A stretch of DNA of 64,000 nucleotides, from NCBI GenBank assembly GCA_963848295.1, contig CAWKDB010000010.1, positions 2,720,001-2,784,000 on the forward strand, read 5' to 3'. Positions within the stretch are counted from its first letter, which is position 1. Each line of letters opens with the position of its first letter. The translations under genes and the position numbers were made by a program. The notes below the pieces were generated by a model, which did no database searches, was not told where the DNA came from, and was given only the letters and a program-made list of their open reading frames with translations. Positions 23,974 to 41,611 of the stretch are shown one piece after another. This DNA comes from an uncultured delta proteobacterium (GTDB lineage Bacteria > Myxococcota_A > Polyangia > Haliangiales > Haliangiaceae).

Positions 23974-25095
23974 TTATGGGCGATTCGAGAAGTGCTGGAC
24001 CGGGAACGGATCGGCGGTCTCGCGCGTGTTGAGCTCGTTGTCATCGGGCAGCGGCTGGACCGGGATCCCGAGCGCCATCAACCCGGCGACGTCGTTGTAG
24101 CGCAGCTCCGCGATCGCGATCGGGCGATCCGTCGCACGCACGAACCGGGTCCACTGCGCGGCCGAGTAGCGCTGCTCGCCGAACTGCGTGCCGAGGCCGA
24201 GCCGACCGGTCGACGGCGCCTCGTCCTTCGCGACCTCGTCATCGCCACCGTAGTCCGCGGCGGTCGCACGACCGGCGTGATACGCGCCGCCTGCGCCTTG
24301 CCCGTTCGCGGCCGGAGCGGCCGTCACCGTCGGAGCCGGCGCCATCTTCTCCGCCGGTTCGTACCCGCGCGGCGGCGGCGGGGGAGCCGGCTGGTCAGCC
24401 GACGCGGTCGTCTTGTCGGCGTCGTAGTGATGGCCGCTGCCCTTGGCGGCGCCGCCGTTGGTGTACGTCGGCGCGGTACCGCGGCGGCTGTCGAGATCAT
24501 CTTTGTAGTCGTAGTGATGGTTCGGGTCTTTCGCCGACGCGTCGACGTTGACATCGTCGGGGGCGACCATCTGCGGTTGACCCTGCTCTTCGAAGATCGC
24601 GACCGCGATCACGCCGACGTTGCGCGCCTTGCCCTTCTGGCCGGCGTACGAGCCGTCGACCGACGAGAATCGGAACGTCGCGACGTTGTCGGTCGAGGTG
24701 CGAAAGCCTTCGATCCGGGTCTCGCCGTACGCCGGCACGACATAGCCGCGCTTGTGGAGGTCGCCGTCTTCGCCATCGATGACGTCGAGACCATCGACCG
24801 TGACGACCGCCTCGACGCGGTTCGGCGTCGGGTTCGTCACGCGGATCGTGTAGCGCTCGCTCGCGCTGCCCTGGACGTAGAACCGATCCTTGAACGCGTA
24901 CGTCGGCTCGGTCGAGCCGTCTTCGCGGATGACCTGGACGTCGTAAGGCGCGCGGACCTTCGCGTTCGCGATCGCGAGCGCGGTGCGCGGTGCGGCGATC
25001 TGCTGACCGGGCGGGCCGGGGTTGAGATCGGCGTAGGCCGACGAGCAAGCGGCGGCGAACAGGAGCGACGCGAGGACGGTGCGGAGGCTCGACAT
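23974..25095 (-). CDS. Conserved secreted hypothetical protein
   Basis: Signal peptide; ERYTIRVTN...VTVDGLDVIDG...GYVV...IEGFR...NVGVIAVAIFEE; LGTQFGE. Confidence 0.8.
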   Translation of the reverse strand: MSSLRTVLASLLFAAACSSAYADLNPGPPGQQIAAPRTALAIANAKVRAPYDVQVIREDGSTEPTYAFKDRFYVQGSASERYTIRVTNPTPNRVEAVVTVDGLDVIDGEDGDLHKRGYVVPAYGETRIEGFRTSTDNVATFRFSSVDGSYAGQKGKARNVGVIAVAIFEEQGQPQMVAPDDVNVDASAKDPNHHYDYKDDLDSRRGTAPTYTNGGAAKGSGHHYDADKTTASADQPAPPPPPRGYEPAEKMAPAPTVTAAPAANGQGAGGAYHAGRATAADYGGDDEVAKDEAPSTGRLGLGTQFGEQRYSAAQWTRFVRATDRPIAIAELRYNDVAGLMALGIPVQPLPDDNELNTRETADPFPVQHFSNRP

Positions 25096-25190
25096 GGGTC
25101 ATGAAGACGCACGAGCTAGCCGCTTCGATCTAAGACGATTGGGGCTGTGATCTCGACTAGATAGCCGGCGCCGTGTGTATAGTGCCCGAC

Positions 25191-25853
25191 ATGGCGCCGA
25201 AGCAAGCTCGGGGTAAGTCCAAGCCGGCGCGCGGCTCGATCGAACCGCGCCGCCCTTCGGCGGTGCGTGGCTCGGCCAAGCCGACGAAAGCCGCGCGCAG
25301 GGGGCCACCCGACGTCGTGCTGTCCGATCCGACGTTGTTCGACCCGTTGACCCCGGGCGAGACCGCCGATGCGCTGCGCACGCTCACCGAGGATCGCCGC
25401 GTCGCCACGATGGCGAAGGTCGGCCGCTACCGCGTGATCTGCACCGAGCCGCTCGTCGTCAAGCCGCCGCACTGGATGGCCGGACATCGGCTCGCGCGCG
25501 TCGTCGCATACGACTACGCGTCGGATCGCGCGGTCGATGCGTGCGTCGATCTCGATGCCGGCGTCGTCGCGCACCTCGAGCTGACTCGAGCGCAGCCGAT
25601 GTTGTCGCGCGAAGAAGAAGCGCTCGCCGTTTCGATCGCGACGCTCGACGAGCGCGTGCGCGATCGCCTGCAGCTCGGCGATGCGCCGCAGGCGACGATG
25701 CATCATTGGGGACGCCTCCCCGGCGATCTCGCGTTCGAGCGCCGCTCCGCCGCGGTCGTGTTCGGTCGCAACGATGGCCACGCGACGTTGATCGCGGTCG
25801 TCGATCTCCTCGATCAGATGGTGACGCAGGTCGTCCCCGCCGGGATGTGGTGA
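25191..25853 (+). CDS. Hypothetical protein resembling the N-terminal (N2/N3) domains of copper amine oxidases
   Basis: FDPLTPGE..A; VAYDY...VDL...V; QPMLSREE; ends VVDL....V; co-transcribed with the next gene. Confidence 0.55.
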   Translation: MAPKQARGKSKPARGSIEPRRPSAVRGSAKPTKAARRGPPDVVLSDPTLFDPLTPGETADALRTLTEDRRVATMAKVGRYRVICTEPLVVKPPHWMAGHRLARVVAYDYASDRAVDACVDLDAGVVAHLELTRAQPMLSREEEALAVSIATLDERVRDRLQLGDAPQATMHHWGRLPGDLAFERRSAAVVFGRNDGHATLIAVVDLLDQMVTQVVPAGMW

Positions 25854-25856
25854 GCG

Positions 25857-26661
25857 ATGAGTAACCAGATCTCCGAAGCGAACTGGAAGTTCAACTGGCG
25901 GCTCACCGAGTCCGCCGGGATCATGATCTACCTCGCCGACTTCAAGGGCCGGCGCGTGTTGTGGGAAGGCTCGCTGCCGTTCGTCACCGTCGATCATCAG
26001 CACGAGACGCTCGATGTCGACAGCGATCCGGGCGAGGTCCACGGCCCGTGGTGGGTGCCGCTCGGCGCTCGCACGTTGAACGGCCCGGTCCGCGTCCAGT
26101 CGTTCCGCGGCGGCGTCGAGCTGTCGGCGAGCTTCGCGGCGGGGCCGTATCACTACACCCAGCTGTGGCGGTTCCACGACGACGGTCGGATCTCGCCGTG
26201 GCTGACGATCTTCGGGCCCGGCGTGCACGACCAGCACACGTATCACCCGCACTTCCGGTTCGACTTCGATCTCGACGGCGCGCGCGACGATGCGTTCGAG
26301 CGCTACGAAGACGGCCGCTGGCAGCGCGTCGAGCACGAGGGCTGGTTTCCGTATTCCGGCGAGGCCGACGATCACGGCAACGTGTGGCGCCAGGTCGATT
26401 TCGGCTCGCGCGCGGCGATCAACATCCGGCCCGCACACCTGGGACGACGCCGAGATGTTCGCGATCCGCTATCACGACGGCGAATGGGCGCCGTTCTCGC
26501 CGCGCAGCGCCGCGGGCAGCCAGCCGTTTCCAGCCGCGTACGTCGGCGACGAGCCGCTCGACGGCGATGACGTCACGCTGTGGTACGTCGCGCACGTCCA
26601 CTTCGATCAATCGTTTCCGTACACCGCGGGTCCGTGGATCCGCGTCGAGTGGCCGAAGTAA
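25857..26661 (+). CDS. Truncated copper-amine-oxidase catalytic-domain-like protein; frameshift near 26432
   Basis: WKFNWRL...GI...VLWEGSLP; GPYHYTQLWRFHDDGRI; HTYHPHFRFDFDLDG; EPLDGDDVTLWYVAHVH (ORFs 25857..26570 + 26290..26661). Confidence 0.65.
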
Positions 26662-26673
26662 TCAGCGCGTCGC
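26640..26673 (+). repeat. Left copy of a 34-bp perfect direct repeat flanking the ParE-type TA module
   Basis: ccgcgtcgagtggccgaagtaatcagcgcgtcgc, identical to 27268-27301. Confidence 0.97.
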
Positions 26674-26730
26674 CGGGCTCGCGAGGGTGGCTGTGGATCG
26701 GCCTGTCGCGGAGGTGCTATGGTTGTATTG

Positions 26731-26958
26731 ATGCTGGTCATCAAGACCACCGTTCGCAACGGGCGGATCGTCGTCGACGAGCCGACGAGCCTCCCGGACG
26801 GTCGCGAGGTCGAGCTGTGCGTCGTGAACGACGACGGCATGAAGGAAGACGAGCGCGCTCGGTTGCACGCCTCGATCGCCCGCGGTCTTGCAGATGGCCG
26901 CGCCGGTCGCGAGGCCGACCTCGGAGCGTTTCTGGATCAGCTCGACGACGAATCGTGA
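26731..26958 (+). CDS. Putative type II antitoxin
   Basis: Small acidic protein (VRNGRIVVDEPTSLPDG..., SIARGLADGRAGR) overlapping a RelE/ParE toxin gene; leaderless extended -10 TGcTATGGT. Confidence 0.75.
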   Translation: MLVIKTTVRNGRIVVDEPTSLPDGREVELCVVNDDGMKEDERARLHASIARGLADGRAGREADLGAFLDQLDDES

Positions 26959-27260
26959 AGGTCGTCCTGACCGAGGAAGCGCAGCGCCAGGCGCGCGCCG
27001 AGCGGCGGTGGTGGCGCGAGCACCGCGACGCCAAGCAGCTGTTCACCGCCGAACTGCGTAACGCGCGCGAGCTGCTCGCCAACGCGCCGAAGCACGAGGT
27101 CTACGGCTCCTTCGACGGCCAGCCCGTTCGGCGGTTGTTACTGGCGAAGACGCGTTGCCATGTCTACTACTACGTCGTCGAGCGCGAGCAGCTGGTCCGC
27201 ATCGTCGCCATCTGGGGCTCGACTCGCGGTTCGGACCCGAGCAAGGTCGAGCCGCGGTGA
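26955..27260 (+). CDS. RelE/ParE-family toxin
   Basis: VKVVLTEEAQRQ...WW...VRRLLL..TRCHVYY...VRIVAIWG..RG; GTGA overlap. Confidence 0.82.
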   Translation: MKVVLTEEAQRQARAERRWWREHRDAKQLFTAELRNARELLANAPKHEVYGSFDGQPVRRLLLAKTRCHVYYYVVEREQLVRIVAIWGSTRGSDPSKVEPR

Positions 27261-27267
27261 GCGCGCC

Positions 27268-27301
27268 CCGCGTCGAGTGGCCGAAGTAATCAGCGCGTCG
27301 C
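27268..27301 (+). repeat. Right copy of the 34-bp direct repeat
   Basis: Identical to 26640-26673; supplies the stop codon of the downstream minus-strand gene. Confidence 0.97.
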
Positions 27302-27947
27302 GTCGAACGCGGCCGAGTGCAGCCCGAACATCACCGCGATCGCGCGGTCGTCCGGATCGATCAGATCGACGCGGCCCTGCACGGCGACCGTGACGAACGG
27401 CGTGAGCCACACGCTCGCTCGGGCGCGAGCATCGATGACGCCATCGAGGTCGATGTCGGCCGGGCCCTGACTCGCGTCGAGCGCGAACACGCGTAGGCCA
27501 CCCGCGAGATCGCCGCCGAGCATGAAGCGCCCGAACGTGATCTGCTTGCCGATCGCGAGCGTGTTGCGCAAGAACGTGCCGGTCGCCGCGCTCGCTGGAC
27601 CGGTCATGTCGAGCGCGAGCACGAAGTCGTCTGCGAAGTACCAGACCGTGCGGCAGCCCGAGGTGCCAGCCGAATTCGAGGCCGCGGCCGTCGAGCTCTC
27701 CGGCCATCGGCGATCCCGTCGCGGTCCGCGCAGCCACGGGCATCGACGCCAGCGCACCTTCGACCATCGCGCGATCGGCGGTGATCGTCGTGATCCCGAG
27801 GTCGAGGCCGAGCGAGATCGGCAGTCGCCACATCCCGAACCGATGACAGTGGCGATAGCCGACGACCTTCGAGACTTCGTGACAGCTCGAGTGCGCCTCG
27901 GCGAGGTGCGGCACGAGCAGCGCGAGGACGAGCAATGCAGCCTTCAT
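27290..27947 (-). CDS. Small outer-membrane beta-barrel-like protein, array copy 1 (frameshift near 27650)
   Basis: MKAALLVL..AEA signal; CHEVSKVVGYRHCHRFGMW; DARARASVWLTPFVTV; ends LHSAAFDATR. Confidence 0.7.
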
Positions 27948-28411
27948 GGCGGACCTCCGCGCACACAGCCAGCGCTGGGCGGTGGCCGCGCCCGGCTCGA
28001 TCGCGCCGATGTCGACGCAGACCTCCGCGAACTGCGCCGCCGGCGTATCGCGACCGTCGCGATATTCGATGAGCTCCTGGCCGTGGCCGAGCGCGAGGAT
28101 CAGGCGCGACCGCGATCTCTTGGCCCGGATCGTACGGACGGAGCGGGACCTCGCCGCCATCGAGCCCGCGCGCGACGACCGGCAGGTTCGCGAGGTCGAC
28201 GTTCACGCGATGCTCGCAGCGATTGCCGAACGTGTAGCCGATCGACCGGGCCCATCGTGTAGCCCTGGTCGTCGCGGGTCACCGCGAGATCGAGGCAGCT
28301 CGTCGTCGCGCGTTGGCCGGGAAAACGGATCCGCCACAGGTAGTCAAACGAGCCGGCGTGGTAGCCGCAGCCGGCGACGAGCGCGACGGCGAGCGCGAGC
28401 GGGCGAGTCAT
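27944..28411 (-). CDS. Cys-rich lipoprotein, array copy 1 (several frameshifts)
   Basis: VAGCGYHAGSF, CLDLAV, GNRCEH.V.VDLANL, VCVDIG, W.C; spread over ORFs 28100..28420, 27604..28206 and 27138..28160. Confidence 0.68.
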
Positions 28412-28501
28412 GCTCGACATGATCGCTACGATCGCGCCGCGACTTGCTAAGGCCGCGTGAAGGCTTCGTGGCTCAGGAAGTCTTAACGGTCGCGCCCGCG
28501 G

Positions 28502-29143
28502 TCAGCGCGTCGCGTCGAACGCGCGCAAGTGCGCGCCGAACATGACCGCGACCGCGGCGTCGTGACTGTCGAGCAGATCGACGCGGCCCTGGACGCCGAG
28601 CGTGATCCACGGCGTCAGCCAGACATCGGCCTGCGCGCGTGCATCGATGACGCCGTCGAGCGCGACCTGATCGTGCGCGACCGCGCCGGGCGGCGCGAAG
28701 TCGGTGAACCGAAACCCGCCGGCGAGATCGCCGCCGATCGTGAGTCGCCCGAACGTGTGCTGCATGCCGACGCCGAAGTCATCGCGACCGGTCGCGACGC
28801 TATCGCCGGTCAGCGGATCCGTGATCCCGAGCGCGAGCGTCAAGTCGTTGCTGACGTACCAGCCGTGCGGCAGCGAGAACCGATAGCCGAACATGAAGCC
28901 GTGCGCGTCGAGTGACCCGGACACCGGTTCCCCGGTCGCCTCGCGCGCGATCGCCATCCCGGTCGGCCGCTCGACCGCGAGCGTCGTGATCCCGAGCTCG
29001 AGCGACATCGATATCGGCACCGACCACATGCCGAACCGCCCGCAGCGGGGATAACCGACCACCTTCGCGACCTCGTGGCAGGTCGGCTCCGCCTCGGCGA
29101 GCTGCGGCACGAGCAGCGCGACGACGACCACCGCCGCCTTCAT
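28502..29143 (-). CDS. Small outer-membrane beta-barrel-like protein, array copy 2
   Basis: Signal peptide; CHEVAKVVGYPRCGRFGMW; alternating amphipathic strands; ends AHLRAFDATR. Confidence 0.78.
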   Translation of the reverse strand: MKAAVVVVALLVPQLAEAEPTCHEVAKVVGYPRCGRFGMWSVPISMSLELGITTLAVERPTGMAIAREATGEPVSGSLDAHGFMFGYRFSLPHGWYVSNDLTLALGITDPLTGDSVATGRDDFGVGMQHTFGRLTIGGDLAGGFRFTDFAPPGAVAHDQVALDGVIDARAQADVWLTPWITLGVQGRVDLLDSHDAAVAVMFGAHLRAFDATR

Positions 29144-29604
29144 CGCGGACCTCCGACGCACACCCAGCGTTCGCTGCGCCGGCTCTCCGGCTCGAGCGCG
29201 CCGACATCGACGCAGACATCTGCGGTGTGCGCCGCGGGCGTGCCGGCCGAGTCGCGATACTCGATCTCCTCCTGACCTTCGCCGAGCGCGACGATCGCCG
29301 CGGGCCGGAGCTCGGCGTCCGGATCGTACGCGTGCAACGGCGTGACCGCGCCATCGATCCCGCGAGCGACGACGCGCAGGTTCGCGAGGTCGACCATCAC
29401 GCGGTGCTCGCAGCGATTGCCGAACGTGTAGTCGATCACCGGCCCGAGCGTGTAGCCCTGATCATCGCGGCCGACGCCGAGATCGAGACACGCACCGGCG
29501 ACGCGTTGACCGACGAACGGATGCCAGTAGTAGTCGAACGAGCTCGGCTTGTAGCTACAGCCGGCGACGACGAGCGGGGCGAGCCAGATAAGTCGATGAG
29601 CCAT
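29140..29604 (-). CDS. Cys-rich lipoprotein, array copy 2
   Basis: VAGCSYKPSSF, CLDLGV, FGNRCEH, VCVDVG, WVC; ATGA coupling to the barrel gene. Confidence 0.82.
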   Translation of the reverse strand: MAHRLIWLAPLVVAGCSYKPSSFDYYWHPFVGQRVAGACLDLGVGRDDQGYTLGPVIDYTFGNRCEHRVMVDLANLRVVARGIDGAVTPLHAYDPDAELRPAAIVALGEGQEEIEYRDSAGTPAAHTADVCVDVGALEPESRRSERWVCVGGPR

Positions 29605-29712
29605 GACTCATGTTGGCCCGCTCGCGGATCAAAGCCACGACGCTCGGGAAATACTATCGGCCGTAAATATTAAGCGCGTTAACATCGCGTGCGCGCGAGT
29701 GTGAAGCGCGAA

Positions 29713-29919
29713 ACATGTCGCTCTGTCGACGTCGAGCTGCGCCATCAGAATTTGCGCCAGCCGTCGCTGAAGACGCCGTGCCGGTAGACCCGAGCGTTAT
29801 ACGCGTCGATCGCGTCACGATTATCGGCGAGCCAAGCCCCGCGGTCCGCCGTGCGGATCGCGACCTCTTCGCGCGCCCACCAGGTCGGCTCTCACCGACA
29901 GATCGATCGGCGTCTTCAT
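29713..29919 (-). pseudogene. ccdA: Degraded ccdA-ccdB toxin-antitoxin locus (ccdA with internal deletion/frameshift; only the first codons of ccdB remain)
   Basis: Minus strand reads MKTPIDLSVRADLV, then in a shifted frame EEVAIRTADRGAWLADNRDAIDAYNARVYRHGVFSDGWRKF* (CcdA C-terminal signature). A TGATG overlap leads into MAQLDVDR, like the CcdB start MAQFDVY. Confidence 0.8.
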
Positions 29920-29957
29920 ACGCATCATCATAATATGCGCAGGCTCTCCGGGGATGC

Positions 29958-30632
29958 TCAACGATCGCGCCCGAACGCGCGGGTATGCAGCGCGAAGTAC
30001 AAGCCGCTCGACCAGCTGCCCGCGTCGATCACGCTCGCGCCCGCGTCCGCGCCGACCGCGATCCACGGGTTCAGCCATAGCTCGCCGCGAACGCGCGCTT
30101 CGACGATGGGAACCGCGAGGCCCGTCGCGGCGGTCGCGGGATCGAACGAGACAACGCCCACACCGCCCTCGAGCTCGACCGACAACGACGCGCGGCCGGC
30201 GCGATGCCGCACACCGAGCACGCCGCCGAGCCCGACGTACGTATACGGATCCGGCGTCGTCGAGCCGCCCGACACGATGCCATCGACCGACGTCTCGATC
30301 GCGAAGTACAGATGATGCGGCAGGCCGACACCGAGTCGATCGGTGGCGCCGATCGCGAGCAAGCCAGTGCGGCGCCCCCCGGACGTCATGCCCGCGGTGC
30401 GAGCGGCGGGCGCGAACGGCACGTCGAGCTCGAGGTGCCTGACCTCCGTGCCGAGCTCGATGATCAGGTCCGGGAACCGCGCGCTGATCGACCAGACGCC
30501 AAACGGATTGCACGCCGAGAACCCGACGACCTCGCATGGGCACCGCGGCCCGACCGCGAACCCGCCGTTATCGGCACGAGCCGCGCCGGCGATCGCCGCG
30601 AGCCCGCTCGCGATGGCGACAGCGCGAATCAC
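29958..30632 (-). CDS. Small outer-membrane beta-barrel-like protein, array copy 3
   Basis: Signal peptide; CPCEVVGFSACNPFGVW; EARVRGELWLNPW; ends LHTRAFGRDR. Confidence 0.78.
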   Translation of the reverse strand: MIRAVAIASGLAAIAGAARADNGGFAVGPRCPCEVVGFSACNPFGVWSISARFPDLIIELGTEVRHLELDVPFAPAARTAGMTSGGRRTGLLAIGATDRLGVGLPHHLYFAIETSVDGIVSGGSTTPDPYTYVGLGGVLGVRHRAGRASLSVELEGGVGVVSFDPATAATGLAVPIVEARVRGELWLNPWIAVGADAGASVIDAGSWSSGLYFALHTRAFGRDR

Positions 30633-31078
30633 GGCGTCACCGCCAGGCGGCCATCGCCGAAGCACATCCATTGCGCAGCCGTCGCGTGCGCGATCGGCGC
30701 GACGTCGACGCACACCGCAGCGAGCTCGCCCGGCCCGGCGTCGTACGCGATCACCTCGCGCCCGGCCATTCGACCGTCGATCGGCAGCGCGCGCAGCTCG
30801 TTCCGGAGATCGACCGGCGCCATCGCGAGCTCACGACCATCGCCGGTCCGGCCAACCACGTGCACCGCGGCGAGATCGACGACGGTCGGATGATCGCAAC
30901 GATTGCCGAAGTCGTACTCGAGCTCGGCGATCCCATCGCGCTCGCTCCGCCCGGCGACCGAAACATCGAGGCAGCCCAGCGTCGCGCGCTGCCCCGGGAA
31001 ATCGATGGCGAGCCGGCGGAACGATCCGGGCTGGTAGGCACAACCGGTGATCGCGACGAGCGAGACGACGCAGCGCAT
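30629..31078 (-). CDS. Cys-rich lipoprotein, array copy 3
   Basis: ITGCAYQPGSF, CLDVSV, FGNRCDH, VCVDVA, WMC; GTGA coupling. Confidence 0.82.
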   Translation of the reverse strand: MRCVVSLVAITGCAYQPGSFRRLAIDFPGQRATLGCLDVSVAGRSERDGIAELEYDFGNRCDHPTVVDLAAVHVVGRTGDGRELAMAPVDLRNELRALPIDGRMAGREVIAYDAGPGELAAVCVDVAPIAHATAAQWMCFGDGRLAVTP

Positions 31079-31088
31079 ACCCGCCGCA

Positions 31089-31106
31089 TAGCAAGACGTC
31101 GGCCGA
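31089..31106 (-). promoter_or_regulatory. Putative sigma-54 promoter
   Basis: Minus strand TCGGCCGACGTCTTGCTA (GG-N10-GC with TTGC), 13 nt upstream of ATG 31078. Confidence 0.5.
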
Positions 31107-31237
31107 CCGCGAACCGCTCGATTGCCGTGCGATGGCGCGGACCTGCCTCATCGTGCCGCGTCGCTGACGCAACACCGTCATCGGGTTGCAACAACGTCGC
31201 GCTTGCGGTGCGCAGCGCCGAGCATGATGGTCCGGCG

Positions 31238-32311
31238 ATGCCGCGTTTGTCCGTCGTCCTGGTCCTCGCCGCGTGTACGTCGAAGACCACGGCGCTGCCC
31301 GACGCACCTCCTCCCGTTCCGGTCGCGACCGGCGCGGTCGGTGCCTGGCAAACCGCGCCCGCGCTGCCGATCGCGCGCGCGAACCTGTGCGCCGCCTCGA
31401 TCGACAACTGGGTGCTCGCGATCGGCGGCAACCACGCCGATGCCGCCGGCGACTTCGTCAAGACCGCCGAGATCGACGCGGCTCAGCTCTCCGACGACGG
31501 CACCCTCGGGCCGTGGCAAGTCGCGGGCATGCTGCCGAGCCCGGTCAGCGAATGCGTCGCGACGAGCGATAGCAATCATCTCTACGTGATCGACGGCCTG
31601 TACGACGACGCCGCCGACGCCGGCCAGGTCTTCACCGCCGACCTCGACGCGACCGGCCACCTCGGCACGCTGACCTCCGCCGGCACCCTGCCGAGCGGCG
31701 ATGTCGTGATCTCGCAGAGCGCGTTCGTCCGCGACGGCACCCTCGCCGTGATGAACCCCGAGCTCGCCGACCCCGGCTCCGCCACCGACCCCGCGAACAC
31801 CGTGCAGACGATCCGCACCGCGATGACCGCGCCGTTCGCGTGGAGCGTCGACGGCTGGAACATCACGTGGCGCGACCAAGCGCAGTACGCCTTCGCCGAC
31901 GGCTTCGCCTACGTCATTGGCGGCTACGGCGAAGACGACGCGAACACCGTCACGACCGACGTCTACATGGCGCCGATCGGCGCGAGCGCCGCGATCGGTG
32001 CGAGCGCGCTCACCACGCCGCTGCCGGTTGCGACCGCGTTCGGCCAAGGCGTCGCGGTCGACGACTGGATCTTCGTCGTCGGCGGCCGCGGCGCCGTATT
32101 CGGCGGCACCGCGACCACCGCGGTGTGGGCCGCGCAAATCGGCAGCGACGGCACCCTCGGCGCGTGGCAAACGCAAACGCCGTTGAGCCAACCGCGCACG
32201 AACCAGGCGATGGTGCTCGTCGGCAGCTACCTCGTCTCGGTCGGCGGCGCCGATGCCGCCGGCGGCGACACGACCGTGCTCGCCGCGCAGGTGCGCTACC
32301 CGCCGCAGTAA
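31238..32311 (+). CDS. Kelch-like beta-propeller lipoprotein
   Basis: LAAC lipobox; repeats LAIGG, YVIDG, YVIGG, FVVGG, VSVGG with DGTLG.W....LP.P. Confidence 0.85.
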   Translation: MPRLSVVLVLAACTSKTTALPDAPPPVPVATGAVGAWQTAPALPIARANLCAASIDNWVLAIGGNHADAAGDFVKTAEIDAAQLSDDGTLGPWQVAGMLPSPVSECVATSDSNHLYVIDGLYDDAADAGQVFTADLDATGHLGTLTSAGTLPSGDVVISQSAFVRDGTLAVMNPELADPGSATDPANTVQTIRTAMTAPFAWSVDGWNITWRDQAQYAFADGFAYVIGGYGEDDANTVTTDVYMAPIGASAAIGASALTTPLPVATAFGQGVAVDDWIFVVGGRGAVFGGTATTAVWAAQIGSDGTLGAWQTQTPLSQPRTNQAMVLVGSYLVSVGGADAAGGDTTVLAAQVRYPPQ

Positions 32312-32369
32312 CGCCCCGCTCGGCCGGAACGCCGTTGTCGTGCCGGCCAAAACCTCGCTACGCTTGGCC

Positions 32370-32690
32370 ATGGTCGCGGTCGCCCTTCCGCCCGGCGTGC
32401 TCGAGCGCATCGTCGAGGTGCTCGCGCCGGAAGAGGTATGGCTGTTCGGGAGTCGTGCGAGACAAACGCACGGGCCCGATAGCGACTGGGACCTCATGGC
32501 CGTGCTGCCGGATACCGCCCCGGACCGCGATCTCGATCTCGCCACCGTGTGGAGCAACCTTCGCGAGCTGCGGCGGATGCGCATCGAGGTGATCCCGATC
32601 CGTCGCCGCGACTTCGATGAAAGCCGGACCACGCTGGGCGAGCTCGCAGAGGCGGTCGCACGCGAGGGTCACGTCGTCTATGGACGCTGA
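32370..32690 (+). CDS. Minimal nucleotidyltransferase (MNT) antitoxin
   Basis: VWLFGSRAR....DSDWDL (GS-x10-DxD); REG.VVYG C-terminus. Confidence 0.88.
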   Translation: MVAVALPPGVLERIVEVLAPEEVWLFGSRARQTHGPDSDWDLMAVLPDTAPDRDLDLATVWSNLRELRRMRIEVIPIRRRDFDESRTTLGELAEAVAREGHVVYGR

Positions 32691-33112
32691 CCGGGGACGC
32701 TGACCGGAAGGGAGCGAACAAACCGATCGCGAAGCTGCTCGCCGCTGCGAATCTCGATCTCGACGCGGCTCGACGCCTGCTCCTCGAGCCACCGAACGTG
32801 CTCGCTGCCAACCATCTGCAGCAAGCCGCCGAGAAGATCCTCGGCGCCGTCCGACTGCATCGCGGCCTGCTCAACACCAAGGATCACGACCTCGTGATCC
32901 TGATCGATGGCCGTCCGGGCGCAGAGCCACGAGCGCTCCCGGCCGGCGACCCATGGCGCGAACGCTTCCGCCCGCTCGAGCCGCTGTCCGCGTACGCGAC
33001 GACGTCTCGCTACAGCCTCACCCCGACGCCGAAGATGGACGACCTTCGGCAGATGCTCGCGACGTTGACCTCGCTCCACGAGGTCGCGAGGACCGAGCTG
33101 CTCACCAGCTAG
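32680..33112 (+). pseudogene. HEPN-domain toxin, 5' end disrupted by a 13-bp tandem duplication
   Basis: HLQQAAEK, KDHDL..L and YATTSRY motifs. ATG 32680 is in frame only if one copy of ggacgctgaccgg is removed. Confidence 0.75.
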
Positions 33113-33190
33113 CCGCTCGTTCACGAGTGCTGCACGGGCTCGTCAACGTTGGTGCTCCGGTAGAGTGCGCGACCCGCCGGAGTACGTGGC

Positions 33191-34288
33191 ATGGTCGGCG
33201 CCGTGGCTGATCCGGTGCCGTTCTTTGACATGCGAGCCGAGCTCCGGCCGATCCGGGCCGAGCTCGATGCCGCGATCGCCCGCGTGCTCGACAGCGGCGT
33301 GTTGATCGGCGGCACCGAGGTCACCGCGTTCGAGCGCGAGCTCGCGATCGCCACCGGCGCCGCGCGCGCGATCGGCACGAGCTCGGGCACGGATGCGCTG
33401 CTCGCGATCTTGATGGCGCTCGGCATCGACCGCGACGCCGAGGTCGTCACGACGCCGCTGACCTTCTTCGCGACTGCCGGCGCACCCGCACGGCTCGGCG
33501 CGCGCGTCGTGTTCGCCGACATCGATGACGCGACCCTCGGCCTCGATCCGGCCGCCGCGCTCGCCGCTTGCACGCCGCGAACGCGCGCGATCGTCCCGGT
33601 CAACCTGTTCGGCTTGCCGGCGGCGCTGTCCGCGAGCGCGCCATGCCCGATCGTCGAGGATTCGGCGCAGAGCATCCTCGCGGCGCCGGTGCGCGGGATC
33701 GCAGCCGCGCTATCGCTGTTCCCGACCAAGAACCTCGGCGCGCTTGGCGATGCCGGCGCAGTGCTCACCGACGACGCGGCGCTCGCCGATCGCATCGCGC
33801 TGCTCCGCAACCACGGCGCCCAGCCGAAATATCATCATGCGGTCGTCGGCGGAAACTTCCGACTCGATGCGCTCCAAGCCGCCGTGCTGCGCGTGAAATT
33901 GCCGCATCTCGCGCGATGGACCGCCGCTCGGCGCTCCCACGCCGCCCACTATCGCGCGCTGTTCGCCGCCGCGCGCCTCCCCGCCGAGCTGCGCTTGCCG
34001 CCCGACGACGCGGCGCACGTCTACCACCAGTTCTCGATCCGCGCGCCGCGGCGTGACGCGCTGCGTGCGCATCTCGCGACCGCGGGCATCGAGACCGCGA
34101 TCTACTATCCCGAACCGCTCCATCTCCAGCCGTGCTTCGCCTCGCTGGGCTATCGCGCGGGTTCGCTGCCGCGCGCCGAACGCGCGTGCACCGAGCTGCT
34201 CGCCTTGCCGATCCAGCCGGCGCTCGAGCCCGATGGCCGGGCTCGCGTGGTCGACGCGATCGTTGCGTTCTACGGTCGCCGACTGTGA
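33191..34288 (+). CDS. DegT/DnrJ/EryC1/StrS-family sugar aminotransferase
   Basis: SSGTDAL, TPLTFFATA, IVEDSAQS, SLFPTKNLGALGDAG, NFRLDALQAAVL. Confidence 0.93.
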   Translation: MVGAVADPVPFFDMRAELRPIRAELDAAIARVLDSGVLIGGTEVTAFERELAIATGAARAIGTSSGTDALLAILMALGIDRDAEVVTTPLTFFATAGAPARLGARVVFADIDDATLGLDPAAALAACTPRTRAIVPVNLFGLPAALSASAPCPIVEDSAQSILAAPVRGIAAALSLFPTKNLGALGDAGAVLTDDAALADRIALLRNHGAQPKYHHAVVGGNFRLDALQAAVLRVKLPHLARWTAARRSHAAHYRALFAAARLPAELRLPPDDAAHVYHQFSIRAPRRDALRAHLATAGIETAIYYPEPLHLQPCFASLGYRAGSLPRAERACTELLALPIQPALEPDGRARVVDAIVAFYGRRL

Positions 34289-34304
34289 TAGCGCTAGGGC
34301 TGCG

Positions 34305-35330
34305 ATGAAAGTCCGCGTAGCGGTCCTCGGTGCGGGCAGCTGGGGCATCAACCACGTCCGCGTGCTCGCCGGCGAGCCGCGGTGCGAGCTGGTTTCGATC
34401 GTCGAGCCCGATCGCGCGAAGCACGGCGCGATTACATCGCTCGCCCCCCAGGCGCAGATCCTCGAGTCCGCGGATGCGGCGCTGGGCGCAGCGAACGTCG
34501 ATGCGCTCGTGATCGCGACGCCCGCGTCGACCCACGTCGAGCTCGCGCTCGCTGCGCTCGCCGCCGGCAAACATGTGCTGATCGAGAAGCCGGTCGCACG
34601 CTCGCTCGCCGATGCGGTCCGGCTCGGCGATGCCGCCAGGCACGCGCGCCGGACCGCGATGGTCGGCCACCTGATGGTCTATCACCCAGCGGTCCGCCGA
34701 CTGCGCGAGCTGCTGCGCAGCGGAGCGCTCGGCACGCCGTACTACATCCACGCGACGCGCGTGAACCTAGGCCGGTTGCGCAGCGACGAGACCGCGCTGT
34801 GGTGCTTCGGCCCGCACGATCTGTCGATGATCGACTACATCACCGGCGAAACGCCGACGACCGTCTCGGCGTGCGGCCAATCGGTGCTGCAGCCCGGGAT
34901 CGAGGATGTCGTGTTCATGACCCTGCGCTACGCGAGCGGCCTCGTCGCGAACTTGCACCTGTCGTGGCTGCATCCGCGCAAAGAACGCCGGCTCACGCTC
35001 GTGTGCTCGCAAAAAATGGTCGAGTTCGACGATCAGATTCGCGAGAAGTTGCGGATCTACGACAAGGGCTACGACCGGCCGCCCGACTTCAAGGAGTTCG
35101 GAGAGTTCCTGACGCTGCGCGACGGCGATGTCCACATCCCTCACTTGTCGATGGAGGAGCCGCTGCGAGCCGAAATCCGCCACTTCCTCGACTGTGTCGC
35201 GACCGGGGCCACGCCCGATACCGACCTCGCCGGCGGCGCCCGCGTCACCGCGATCCTCGAGGCCGCGGATTTGTCACTCGGGCGGGGTGGTATGCCAATC
35301 GCGATCAGTCTTGCAGCTACGAGCCGCTAG
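34305..35330 (+). CDS. Gfo/Idh/MocA-family oxidoreductase (nucleotide-sugar dehydrogenase-like)
   Basis: VAVLGAGSWG, ATPASTH, GKHVLIEKP, PHDLS, SWLHPRKERR, EEPL. Confidence 0.92.
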   Translation: MKVRVAVLGAGSWGINHVRVLAGEPRCELVSIVEPDRAKHGAITSLAPQAQILESADAALGAANVDALVIATPASTHVELALAALAAGKHVLIEKPVARSLADAVRLGDAARHARRTAMVGHLMVYHPAVRRLRELLRSGALGTPYYIHATRVNLGRLRSDETALWCFGPHDLSMIDYITGETPTTVSACGQSVLQPGIEDVVFMTLRYASGLVANLHLSWLHPRKERRLTLVCSQKMVEFDDQIREKLRIYDKGYDRPPDFKEFGEFLTLRDGDVHIPHLSMEEPLRAEIRHFLDCVATGATPDTDLAGGARVTAILEAADLSLGRGGMPIAISLAATSR

Positions 35331-36411
35331 GAACGACCGCTAGCGAGTTGATCGTGCCGTCGACGGTCATCGTACCCAACGGCGTGAAATTGTCCTGACC
35401 GTCGATCTCGAATTCCGCTAGCTCGGACGTCGAGGCATCGACCGCCCGCCCGGTCACGACGAACCGACCGTCTCTCGATACCGCCATAGCGGTGACTCGC
35501 GATGCGAACGACGGCCCCGCTGTCCAACTTGGCGTACCCGCCCCGAGCGTGAGCAGTTGAAGCGAGGCGGACGAGCTCACGGCGGCGAGCGCACGATCGT
35601 GAGGCAGGGCGACCACGCGATCGATCGCCCCCAGCGTGCCGACCAATGCATCGAATGCAAATGGGGAACGGGTGTACCGCCAGACGTTGTCGTCGTCGGA
35701 ACAGAATGCGAGCACGCTGTCGCCGCTCAGCACGAGGTCCGTCGGGGCGGCGCACGACGCTGCCTGTTCGTACGCAGACGAGAAATCGAGACCCGCGATC
35801 AGCGCGAAATCCGCGACCTGGCTCGTGCCGCCGATGTAGAGATGCGCCCCGCTGCCGTCGAGTGCCATCGCCCCGGACCCGGTGGGTGCGGCCGCCGAGT
35901 CGAGCACGGTCGGCGTCCCATCGCTGCCGGCCTCGAACCGGTACACACCGGTCGTGCCCGTACCATCGATCGTAAAGAAGCCAACCGACGACGGCGCGTC
36001 GAACCGGATGCGCTGAACCGTTCGCGGCACTCCGAGATCGGGAAACGTCGTCGACGTGACCTGCGCGCATGAGACCGCGATGCCCTCGAACCTGGATTCG
36101 ATGGCGTAGACGTACGGCAGCGACGGATGCGCGACGAGATCGTTGTAGCGGTCGACCGCAGCGGTCAGTGGACACGGAGCGCCGAGGCCCGTGTCGTCGA
36201 ATGGAAAGACCTGTAGCGCCGAGCCCGAGGTGCTGGAAATCGAGGCTACCGCCCAGTTGTGGGTCGAGGCCGGCGCGTCTGGTGAAGCGTCGATCGCGGC
36301 GTCGCTGGCATCACCACCGATCGTGGCATCGTGGTCGGTCGCTGGGCGCGTATTGTCCCCGCAGGCAGTGACCACGAGCAAAGCGAGGAGCGATAAGCTA
36401 GTGCGCAGCAA
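35317..36411 (-). CDS. Lipoprotein, beta-propeller (lactonase-like)
   Basis: VTACGDN lipobox; DAAIDA linker; propeller-like repeats (HPSLPYVY, ALDGSGAHLY, AVSRDGRFV). Confidence 0.7.
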   Translation of the reverse strand: MLRTSLSLLALLVVTACGDNTRPATDHDATIGGDASDAAIDASPDAPASTHNWAVASISSTSGSALQVFPFDDTGLGAPCPLTAAVDRYNDLVAHPSLPYVYAIESRFEGIAVSCAQVTSTTFPDLGVPRTVQRIRFDAPSSVGFFTIDGTGTTGVYRFEAGSDGTPTVLDSAAAPTGSGAMALDGSGAHLYIGGTSQVADFALIAGLDFSSAYEQAASCAAPTDLVLSGDSVLAFCSDDDNVWRYTRSPFAFDALVGTLGAIDRVVALPHDRALAAVSSSASLQLLTLGAGTPSWTAGPSFASRVTAMAVSRDGRFVVTGRAVDASTSELAEFEIDGQDNFTPLGTMTVDGTINSLAVVPSGS

Positions 36412-40371: not shown

Positions 40372-41611
40372 GGGCCCGCGTTTGAACAAGTCGATCGAAG
40401 TCGGTCGATTTGGGATCGACAGGATCGCGCCGACGTGATCTACGTTCGTGGTGGACGCCGAGCAGCTGGTCCGGCGGAAATGGCGCCTGCTCACGGCGAC
40501 GATGGATGAGCGCGCACGTCGCCTGTGGGCTGGTGCTGAGGCCGACGCGATGGGATGGGGCGGGATTGCCGGCGTAGCTCGTGCGACCGGGCTGGCGATC
40601 AGCACGGTGACTCTCGGTCGTGCAGAAGTGCGTGCGGGCGCGCGCACGGACGATGTGGTGAAGGTTCGACGAAAGGGCGGTGGACGCCGACGCCACGAAG
40701 CCGTGCATCCAGAACTTGCTCCGGCGCTCGAAAAGCTTGTCGCCCCGGCGACGCGCGGCGACCCGGAATCGGCGCTGCGCTGGACGAACAAGAGCACGCA
40801 CGCGCTGTCCGCTGAGATGTTCTCCGAGTACGGGATCCGCGTCGGGGACAAGACTGTGGCTCGGTTGCTGCGCAAGAGCGGCTACAGTCTTCAGGCGCCG
40901 AGCAAGACCGTGGAAGGCAAGCAGCATCCGGATCGGAACGCGCAGTTCGAGCACATCAACGCGCAGGCAATGGACTGCCTCAAGCGCGGCATTCCGTTCA
41001 TCTCTGTCGACACCAAGAAGAAGGAACTGGTCGGCAACTTCAAGAACGGCGGCCGCGAATGGCAGCCTCAGGATGAGCCAGAGCTCGTCGACGTTCATGA
41101 TTTCCCGAGCGACGCGATCGGCAAAGCGATTCCGTACGGCGTCTACGACGTTGCCGCCAACAACGCGTTCGTCAGCGTCGGTACGGACCACGACACGCCG
41201 ATGTTCGCGGTCACCTCGATCGAAGCTTGGTGGAAGCGGATGGGTGCCGAGCGCTACCCGGAGGCGACGAAGCTCTTTATCACCGCCGATGCTGGCGGCA
41301 GCAACGCGTATCGATCACGCGTGTGGAAAGCGGAGCTTCAACGGCTCGCCGACAAGATCGGGATCACGATCCACGTCAGCCACTTTCCGCCGGGCACCAG
41401 CAAGTGGAACAAGATCGAGCACCGGCTGTTCTCGTTTATCTCGATCAACTGGCGCGGGCGGCCGCTACGCACGTACGAAACGGTCGTGAATCTCATCGGC
41501 GGTACGACGACCCGTGGAGGTCTTGTCGTGCGAGCAAGACTCGATCGACGTAGCTATCCGATCGGTCGCAAGGTCTCGGTCAAGGAGATGCGCGCTTTTG
41601 GTGGGCTGTGA
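40372..41611 (+). mobile_element. ISAzo13-family insertion sequence, apparently 3'-truncated (transposase 40448..41611); boundaries approximate
   Basis: DERARRLWAG, TRGDPES.LRWT.KS, HPDRNAQF, ISVDTKKKELVGNFKN, DHDT, DAGGSN, PPGTSKWNKIEHRLFS; the expected terminal ...H.EWNY motif is absent. Confidence 0.9.

What the first reader, a model, noticed from the sequence alone, without database searches (positions are those of the whole stretch)
26640..33184. Three unrelated TA modules, each inserted after a host stop codon and bracketed by a duplication of that gene's 3' end: candidate transposase-free TA cassette mobility
Seen: the ParE-type, CcdAB-relic and MNT-HEPN loci lie within 6.5 kb. Each is co-oriented with and just downstream of a host gene, each has its own leaderless -10 promoter, and each is followed by a second copy of the upstream gene's last 20-35 bp. 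The repeats are a perfect 34/34, 18/20, and a decayed 18/21 core. Repeat decay tracks cassette decay: intact, toxin disrupted, relic. The three repeats share no sequence, and there is no integrase, attC-like hairpin, terminal inverted repeat or transposase. Established: IS target-site duplications are usually only 2-14 bp, and integron cassettes need attC and IntI. Inference: a recurring, sequence-independent route places TA cassettes at gene ends with long duplications, for example staggered-break or target-primed insertion, or microhomology-driven integration of small circles.
Basis: partly seen in the sequence, partly recalled or inferred. Interest (0 to 1): 0.85.

Follow-up and report, generated by a model that had tools for sequence, protein, structure and literature searches.

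The report
Toxin-antitoxin inserts duplicating host gene ends
Three small toxin-antitoxin gene pairs in a soil bacterium each sit between two copies of a neighbouring gene's end and are missing at the same spot in relatives; they likely came in by ordinary recombination with a relative's DNA, a pattern already described for restriction genes, and likely not through a new jumping enzyme.

Summary
The three repeats are 34/34, 18/20 and 18/21, and all three sites are empty, with one repeat copy, in relatives. Two more TA modules in this genome show the same pattern with empty sites: HicAB (34/34) and ParE (195/211).

The interpretation needs three corrections.
1. It is not TA-specific. ilvE and other genes carry non-TA cargo the same way, and only 3 of 176 TA loci in relatives show a clean gene-end duplication.
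2. Where it can be tested, the two copies look like different alleles. At the 211-bp case the stranded copy matches the empty-site relative at 9 of 12 sites, so the cargo likely brought a foreign gene end.
3. The MNT-HEPN cassette does carry a mobility trace: 41 bp of the attachment arm of tRNA-Ala/tmRNA integrase islands, ending where the duplication begins.

Best reading: 'insertion with long target duplication', known for restriction-modification genes, likely by single crossover at short homology. Tested for TA modules here; I found no paper on that. This scan noted the same pattern earlier on other DNA. Three perfect 34-bp duplications remain unexplained.

The parts
26290..26661 (+). 3' part of host gene A (starts at 25857; copper-amine-oxidase-like domain); its last 22 bp are part of repeat 1
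   Evidence: conserved in relatives; the frame break near 26433 is likely an assembly slip, since an independent contig lacks that base
26640..26673 (+). repeat 1, left copy: end of gene A with its stop, plus the last 12 bp of the convergent gene
   Evidence: 34/34; one copy in G113
26674..27267 (+). 594-bp insert 1: -10-like hexamer, antitoxin, ParE-type toxin
   Evidence: absent in G113; left junction matched exactly by an independent contig
26731..26958 (+). 75-aa antitoxin-position gene, no Pfam family; relatives often precede ParE-like genes, several at tRNA island ends
26955..27260 (+). ParE-type toxin, intact
   Evidence: PF05016 8e-5
27268..27301 (+). repeat 1, right copy; holds the working stop of the convergent gene
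27290..28500 (-). extra diverged copy of a two-gene unit with its spacer and an 18-bp tail of the 29958 gene (28483-28500); likely a fourth import of the same type
   Evidence: one unit in G113 and two here; 72% against 86% identity to G113
29679..29723 (-). repeat 2, stranded copy (core 29692-29712)
   Evidence: 18/21 core; agrees with G113 at 3 of 3 polarisable sites, read by eye
29724..29745 (-). CcdB stub, 7 codons
   Evidence: alignment to intact CcdAB on contig C3
29745..29934 (-). CcdA relic with an internal deletion
   Evidence: PF07362 1e-8; 29683-29899 matched exactly by an independent contig
29958..30007 (-). repeat 2, working copy: 3' end of the host gene 29958-30632
32291..32311 (+). 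repeat 3, working copy: 3' end of a Kelch-repeat gene; resembles a tmRNA T-arm (13 of 17)
32370..32690 (+). minimal nucleotidyltransferase (MNT) antitoxin
   Evidence: PF01909, PF18765
32680..33112 (+). HEPN toxin, frameshifted near its start
   Evidence: PF05168 3e-8; sequence
33125..33165 (+). inner attachment arm of tRNA-Ala/tmRNA-targeting integrase islands; the outer ~76 bp are deleted; it ends where the RNA-gene core normally starts
33165..33184 (+). repeat 3, stranded copy
   Evidence: 18/20; one copy on contig C3

Best explanation
The three modules are insertions, each bracketed by two copies of a host gene end and absent at the same site in a relative, and they likely entered by a single crossover between the chromosome and a circular piece of related DNA that held the cargo plus a short stretch of the same gene end. 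The crossover would leave the incoming gene end in use and strand the old end behind the cargo. Only events that keep the neighbouring genes intact would survive, which would explain why the copies include the stop codon. TA pairs are likely over-represented because they are short, carry their own promoter and would punish loss by loop-out between the repeats. One source of cassettes is the cargo end of tRNA/tmRNA integrase islands: locus 3 still carries such an arm, and an island integrase likely made or primed its right junction.

Shown: insertion, duplication, empty sites, allele differences, the arm. Inferred: the circle, the crossover, the enzyme and the selection filter.
For: Empty sites with one copy at 5 of 5 TA loci tested: loci 1 and 2 in G113, locus 3 on contig C3, HicAB in G113, G067 and G066, and the contig-C2 ParE in G113.

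At the 211-bp case the stranded copy agrees with G113 at 9 of 12 polarisable sites (3 more match neither) and runs on into G113's downstream sequence. p=4e-5 if both copies began identical and the working one changed only silently; p=0.07 against an even split.

At ilvE (non-TA, 2-kb insert, empty in most relatives listed) the two copies read HADWLSFI* and HEQWLMYV*. Both fall within the variation of relatives' ilvE ends.

L121 has 4 internal differences, all synonymous. The TetR/aldo-keto-reductase insert has 4 synonymous codon differences, read by eye. Hand-trimmed total over 7 pairs: 25 synonymous against 15 replacement changes, p=0.003 against the 0.40 expected.

The duplications end at or within a few bases of the stop, where similarity between alleles would end. 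Their lengths run from about 20 to over 200 bp with no shared sequence. The 5 cassette ends compared by eye share nothing, and the multicopy IS elements here have exact duplications of 12 bp or less.
Against: Locus 1, HicAB and L141 are perfect 34-mers, so they show no foreign allele, and a single length is not expected from free crossover. Locus 1 spans two convergent stops, so a donor would already need a duplication there.

The synonymous bias disappears in the untrimmed automatic count (37 against 44, p=0.19), which includes non-homologous edges and a whole-gene duplicate. Locus 3, L073 and L075 look like neutral decay. The polarisation rests mainly on one locus and one outgroup, and at locus 2 the derived states are shared with contig C3, so they may be shared ancestry.

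No circle has been seen. The pattern is rare in relatives: 3 clean cases of 176 loci; any repeat at score 30 in 16 of 176 against 18 of 400 control tiles, p=0.04.
Confidence: 0.55

Rival explanations
1. Each cassette is what is left of, or was moved by, an integrase island that targets a gene's 3' end and carries a replacement end. The interior was then deleted except for the TA pair.
For: Locus 3 ends in the island arm exactly at the core boundary. All 8 outside matches to the arm motif are followed by a tRNA-Ala-type core (two of the 8 repeat loci already held). An MNT-HEPN pair that aligns to locus 3 over both genes lies before the full arm, core and an integrase gene in L184. In L209 the arm ends in the same letters as the window and is followed by a tmRNA core, which the Kelch end matches at 13 of 17. 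In this genome MazF sits between 64/64 tRNA-Sec copies that start at the anticodon loop, and three cassettes are stacked between tRNA-Ala 3' copies. A replacement end would also be a foreign allele.
Against: Locus 1 has only 57 bp before and 7 bp after the TA genes and a perfect repeat, so two exact deletions would be needed with no decay. I saw no arm or shared end in loci 1, 2, HicAB or the C2 ParE. Every target differs, and 108-211-bp protein-gene duplications are long for att cores (recalled). A tRNA T-arm motif is no commoner near the relatives' ParE, HicA, PIN, CcdB and PemK loci (2 of 127) than in controls (3 of 200).
Confidence: 0.22
2. An enzyme makes a staggered cut about 34 bp wide, or two sister chromosomes break at offset positions, and the cassette is joined in. 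Both copies start identical.
For: Three independent perfect 34-mers in three toxin families and two genomes, plus a 28/33 case. At locus 1 and HicAB both copies carry this strain's variant rather than G113's. This is the kind of mechanism discussed for restriction genes (PMC2853133, discussion passages).
Against: It cannot give a foreign working copy or two natural alleles at ilvE. Lengths also include about 20, 108 and 211 bp. The three 34-mers share no motif or symmetry (by eye). No CRISPR array and no Cas1 or Ku motif was found, by crude patterns in an 85%-complete assembly.
Confidence: 0.17
3. The weak repeats are chance matches or leftovers of the local paralog array, and only locus 1 is real.
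For: 57 of 500 small genes reach locus 3's score in an open search. The region holds tandem paralogs with similar ends.
Against: Both weak copies stand exactly at the insertion boundary defined by empty sites. The position-fixed null gives 4 and 7 of 2,497. The Kelch gene has no local paralog.
Confidence: 0.03

Closest known systems
Insertion with long target duplication of restriction-modification genes (Nobusato et al. 2000, seen only as a reference; Furuta, Abe and Kobayashi 2010, PMC2853133, passages plus sections 12 and 13 read; Mruk and Kobayashi, PMC3874152, passages read)
   Same: An addictive gene pair is inserted with no transposase or integrase, flanked by a unique direct repeat of variable length (25-423 bp in their Table 3), with an empty site in relatives. 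Some of their repeats overlap gene 3' ends, and one makes a gene fusion, as the TetR/aldo-keto-reductase case does here.
   Different: The cargo is type II TA pairs and ordinary genes, with no restriction nuclease to supply the break. The repeats stop at the stop codon. There is allele polarity, which I did not see discussed in the parts read. One cassette carries an island arm.
Integrase islands at tRNA/tmRNA/gene 3' ends and their integrase-less derivatives (cis-mobilizable elements; PMC5704250 seen as a search listing only, details recalled)
   Same: They duplicate the target's 3' end and restore the gene. Locus 3 carries such an arm, and the tRNA-Sec, tRNA-His and tRNA-Ala TA cassettes of this genome fit directly.
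   Different: At locus 3 the repeat is a protein-gene end, not the RNA core, and no core remnant lies at the left junction. The other protein-gene cases have no arm.
IS elements with long variable target duplications (IS1630, 19-26 bp, in the Figure 1 legend of PMC2853133; IS1634 and IS1549 recalled)
   Same: Long direct repeats of unrelated sequence.
   Different: No terminal inverted repeats or transposase in the cassettes. Multicopy IS elements here duplicate 12 bp or less. The 31-bp repeat at an IS30 site belongs to a small host repeat unit.
Chromosomal TA islets such as ccdO157 (Van Melderen and Saavedra De Bast 2009, PMC2654758, passages read)
   Same: Stand-alone TA pairs between core genes, patchy among strains, that decay by drift.
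   Different: The passages read give no insertion footprint. Here the footprint and the empty sites are visible.

Membership tests
Insertion with long target duplication (Furuta 2010 criteria) | Empty site with one repeat copy in a related genome | tested here: met
   loci 1 and 2, locus 3, HicAB, C2 ParE
Insertion with long target duplication (Furuta 2010 criteria) | Duplication over 30 bp (genome comparison) or over 20 bp (repeat screen) | tested here: met
   locus 1 is 34 bp; loci 2 and 3 reach only 20-21 bp cores, so they are borderline
Insertion with long target duplication (Furuta 2010 criteria) | Repeat not multicopy, insert under 20 kb, no mobility gene inside | tested here: met
   34-mer occurs twice only; inserts 241-853 bp; no integrase match in the window
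Insertion with long target duplication (Furuta 2010 criteria) | Cargo is a restriction-modification pair | tested here: not met
   cargo is TA; it works like that class but is not a member in the narrow sense
Integrase island or its remnant | Integrase gene within the element | tested here: not met
   15 PF00589 matches in the genome, none in the window
Integrase island or its remnant | Attachment arm next to the repeat | tested here: inconclusive
   met for locus 3; none seen for loci 1 and 2 (by eye)
Integrase island or its remnant | Repeat equals the element's att core | tested here: not met
   locus 3's right copy matches the host end at 18 of 20 and the tmRNA core only partly
Integrase island or its remnant | Excision as a circle by the integrase | not testable with these tools
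   only low-depth contigs were available
IS or MITE | Terminal inverted repeats and shared ends | tested here: not met
   no such pair among the 25 longest of 459 inverted repeats; the ends of 5 cassettes are unlike each other and unlike IS30 (by eye)
Integron cassette | attC hairpin and intI | tested here: inconclusive
   no integrase match in the window; no Rfam match at E 0.1 in 24000-36000; no attC model was run
Type II TA systems | Toxin and antitoxin family domains in a two-gene operon | tested here: met
   ParE, MNT plus HEPN, CcdA; CcdB by alignment to C3; the locus-1 antitoxin is assigned by position only
Type II TA systems | Toxicity and neutralisation | not testable with these tools
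   needs expression tests

The most novel reading that the evidence does not exclude
Integrases of tRNA/tmRNA islands act in trans to launch arm-tagged TA mini-cassettes onto protein-gene ends that mimic a tRNA T-arm, and a recombination function with a ruler of about 34 bp fixes them there. The repeats then serve as a reusable homology handle that moves the cassette to the same site in relatives. This would be a transposase-free life cycle for chromosomal TA systems.
Probability: 0.15. Interest if true: 0.75.

Novelty: new variant of a known kind. Interest (0 to 1): 0.45.

Why it matters
How stand-alone chromosomal TA pairs get into genomes is still open. These loci keep the footprint: matched filled and empty sites, an age series, allele polarity, and one cassette traceable to an integrase island. 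They give defined substrates (a 594-bp cassette with a 34-bp end; an arm plus a look-alike target) for testing an insertion route that has been inferred for restriction genes since 2000. The 2010 paper states it had no experimental evidence for the release or reinfection steps. The value is limited because the pattern is published for other cargo, is not TA-specific, and covers only a few percent of TA loci in the genus.

Tried and rejected
- Bulk scan of 6,759 called gene ends (my own gene caller): no overall excess of downstream 3'-end copies over four controls (51 at score 30, against 51, 83, 47 and 41). Paralog arrays dominate. The signal appears only after curation.
- A long-duplication IS as the agent: exact duplications of 12 bp or less at multicopy IS copies. 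The IS30 31-bp case was dropped because the repeat belongs to a small host unit and the second IS30 copy lacks it.
- CRISPR/Cas1, Ku and competence genes: no array with spacers and no motif hits. These are crude recalled patterns on an 85%-complete assembly, so weak.
- Excised circles: three runs held only low-depth contigs, with no joint at any cassette boundary; uninformative. No RNA holder listed.
- Glyoxalase as a control family: my threshold was too strict and gave 1 locus. It was replaced by 400 tiles from 20 relatives.
- Gp49, BrnT and HigB-like toxins: none found in this assembly.
- MNT relatives in viral contigs: none confirmed.
- Promoter scan and Rfam: nothing.
- Rows set aside. Of 16 relatives' hits at score 30, 3 are clean gene-end cases (L121, L141, L164); 4 are internal pieces of a neighbour (L049 doubtful, L073, L075, L095); 4 are tRNA/att type (L097, L214, L248, L249); 2 are long gene duplicates (L247, L258); 1 is a duplicated antitoxin end (L072); 1 is low complexity (L041); 1 was not inspected (L227). 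L247 and L258 and alignment edges were left out of the trimmed synonymous count.
- The 176 loci are the best-scoring ones returned, not all matches (for example 29 of about 140 ParE rows). Some have short flanks, the 20 MNT loci used a 1,300-bp right flank, and about half of the PemK set may be one conserved gene.
- Literature: searches of the open-access library found no paper on TA modules with long target duplications. Subscription papers and supplements were not seen.


Full report
Setting. The window is contig C10:2720001-2784000 of a 7.8-Mb, 68% GC assembly in 11 contigs, 85% complete. Records that share the island arm described below are titled Kofleriaceae, Myxococcales or Deltaproteobacteria, so the host is likely a myxobacterium; I did not determine this directly. 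No claim here rests on the unpublished genomes G010 or G074.

Observation. The genes are a ParE-type pair, a CcdAB relic and an MNT-HEPN pair with a frameshifted toxin. The two weak repeats would not stand out in an open search (57 of 500 small genes reach score 25). They do when position is fixed (4 and 7 of 2,497).

Empty sites. Contig C3 of the same assembly is 83-85% identical to this region and likely comes from a sister lineage. It lacks MNT-HEPN, has one copy of the Kelch end there, and has an intact CcdAB at locus 2. G113 has one copy at locus 1 and no CcdAB. Independent contigs match the left junction of locus 1 and the CcdA relic exactly.

Rest of the genome. With 13 TA-type loci found by Pfam searches, 4 have a flanking repeat at score 30 within 800 bp, against 16 of 500 small genes (p=0.001). 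Three of the 4 lie outside the finding: HicAB with a perfect 34-bp copy of a convergent gene's end, ParE on C2 with 195/211 of a permease end, and MazF with 64/64 of tRNA-Sec. HicAB and the C2 ParE have empty sites in G113. A bulk scan of all gene ends shows no excess over controls, because paralogs dominate. Curated non-TA cases exist: a 569-aa gene behind ilvE, TetR plus aldo-keto reductase, a PDZ protein, a 102-aa gene and two repeat clusters. Only ilvE was checked for empty sites; most relatives listed lack the insert.

Relatives. I tested 176 TA loci from the genus. Sixteen have a repeat at score 30, against 18 of 400 control tiles (p=0.04). Three are clean gene-end duplications: CcdAB 34/34 (L141), CcdAB 28/33 (L121) and MazEF 106/108 (L164). 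Seventeen of the 18 control hits lie inside long reading frames away from stops, and one is unclear. The pattern is therefore real across the genus but accounts for a few percent of TA loci. Short-read assemblies may hide some cases.

Are the copies twins? A staggered cut makes identical copies, after which the stranded one should change most. At the 211-bp site the opposite holds. The stranded copy agrees with G113 at 9 of 12 polarisable sites and continues into G113's downstream sequence, while the working gene has a new tail read into the cassette. Within the repeat the working copy differs from G113 at 25 of 203 bases and the stranded copy at 19 of 204; further upstream the gene differs at 3-15 per 104. 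At ilvE both copies look like natural alleles of the family. L121's four internal differences are all synonymous. Trimmed by hand over 7 pairs, the count is 25 synonymous to 15 replacement (p=0.003 against 0.40). The untrimmed automatic count is 37 to 44 (p=0.19), and locus 3, L073 and L075 look neutral. The perfect 34-mers carry no information on this. So a foreign gene end is supported at some sites, not all.

The arm at locus 3. The 41 bp before the right repeat match the inner attachment arm of tRNA-Ala islands in this genome and G013. All 8 outside matches to the arm motif are followed by a tRNA-Ala-type 3' core; two of them repeat loci I already held. L184 has a closely related MNT-HEPN, then the full arm, the core and an integrase gene. 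L209 has a 92%-identical MNT, an arm ending in the same letters as the window, and a tmRNA core. The Kelch end matches that core at 13 of 17 bases. The window's junction falls at the arm/core boundary. The cassette therefore came from an island end (shown), and the integrase likely acted at a look-alike site (inferred). A plain off-target integration would leave RNA-core sequence at the left junction, and none is there. Either a one-sided exchange or an earlier retargeting followed by deletion is needed; both ideas are recalled from phage work, not tested. Loci 1 and 2 show no arm, although relatives of the locus-1 pair often sit between tRNA fragments and one does so in this genome.

Mechanism. 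The simplest account of variable length, unrelated sequence, boundaries at the stop codon, foreign working copies and non-TA cargo is single crossover of a circularised fragment at short homology, filtered by the need to keep neighbours intact. The extra paralog unit at 27290-28500, which carries a tail of the 29958 gene and is absent from G113, fits the same route, making four imports in 6.5 kb. Phage annealing proteins could work at about 30 bp (recalled). I put this at 0.55, island remnants at 0.22 overall (higher for locus 3), and a 34-bp cutting or break-joining process at 0.17.

Known comparison. [quoted passage not shown] PMC3874152 (passages) ascribes it to restriction systems and gives no TA example in those passages. 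PMC3457768 (passages) extends it to other DNAs. PMC2654758 (passages) describes TA islets and says it is not yet understood how they become fixed. Eight searches found no paper on TA modules with this footprint. Earlier notes of this scan report the same class for Fic, DUF4143 and other cargo. I had reached that reading before seeing them and did not check their DNA.

Verdict. Real, well supported by empty sites, and a new variant of a known kind. The allele polarity, the island arm and the recurring 34 bp are the parts worth following. Interest 0.45.

Noticed in passing
L262:459-3869 (G000:C10, about 2841960-2845370): Behind tRNA-Ala(CGC) stand four copies of the tRNA's 3' half plus terminator (95-230 bp, 86-100% alike). 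They separate three ~1.1-kb cassettes: a nucleotidyltransferase-like gene, a ParE-type pair of the locus-1 family, and a PIN-like pair, labelled by eye. No integrase match lies between them. Similar stacks appear in L245, L248, L249, L258 and L180/L181. It looks like a TA cassette array built by tandem accretion.
   Followed up: partly
G000:C10:112775-113592: MazF-type pair between 64/64 copies of tRNA-Sec that start at the anticodon loop; 754 bp, no integrase.
   Followed up: partly
L287:1445-3480 (G000:C10:1077945-1079975): A 569-aa gene with no Pfam match is inserted behind ilvE with a stranded second allele of the gene end; most relatives listed lack it.
   Followed up: yes
L288:1823-3460 (G000:C10:790123-791760): TetR plus aldo-keto reductase (62% GC) sits between 33-bp copies of a gene end; the second copy now forms the reductase's C-terminus.
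   Followed up: partly
window 27290-29604: Two diverged copies of a lipoprotein plus barrel-like two-gene unit, where G113 has one; a third paralog lies at 29958-31078. No Pfam family.
   Followed up: partly
G000 contigs C3, C8, C9: These match parts of C10, C7 or C11 at about 79-92% and are likely from sister lineages binned in.
   Followed up: partly
G000:C10:20811-22069, 189822-191080, 3450500-3450620: An IS30-family element is inserted twice in a ~90-bp host repeat unit that also occurs empty.
   Followed up: partly
G000:C10:4231900-4260580: A 28-kb island at tRNA-Ala(GGC) with a truncated integrase, a repeated arm and an AbiEii-like pair (labelled by eye) at its far end.
   Followed up: partly
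window 26433: One extra base splits gene A; an independent contig lacks it, so it is likely an assembly error.
   Followed up: yes
window 40817-41611: ISAzo13-family transposase (PF07592) beside a polysaccharide gene cluster.
   Followed up: no
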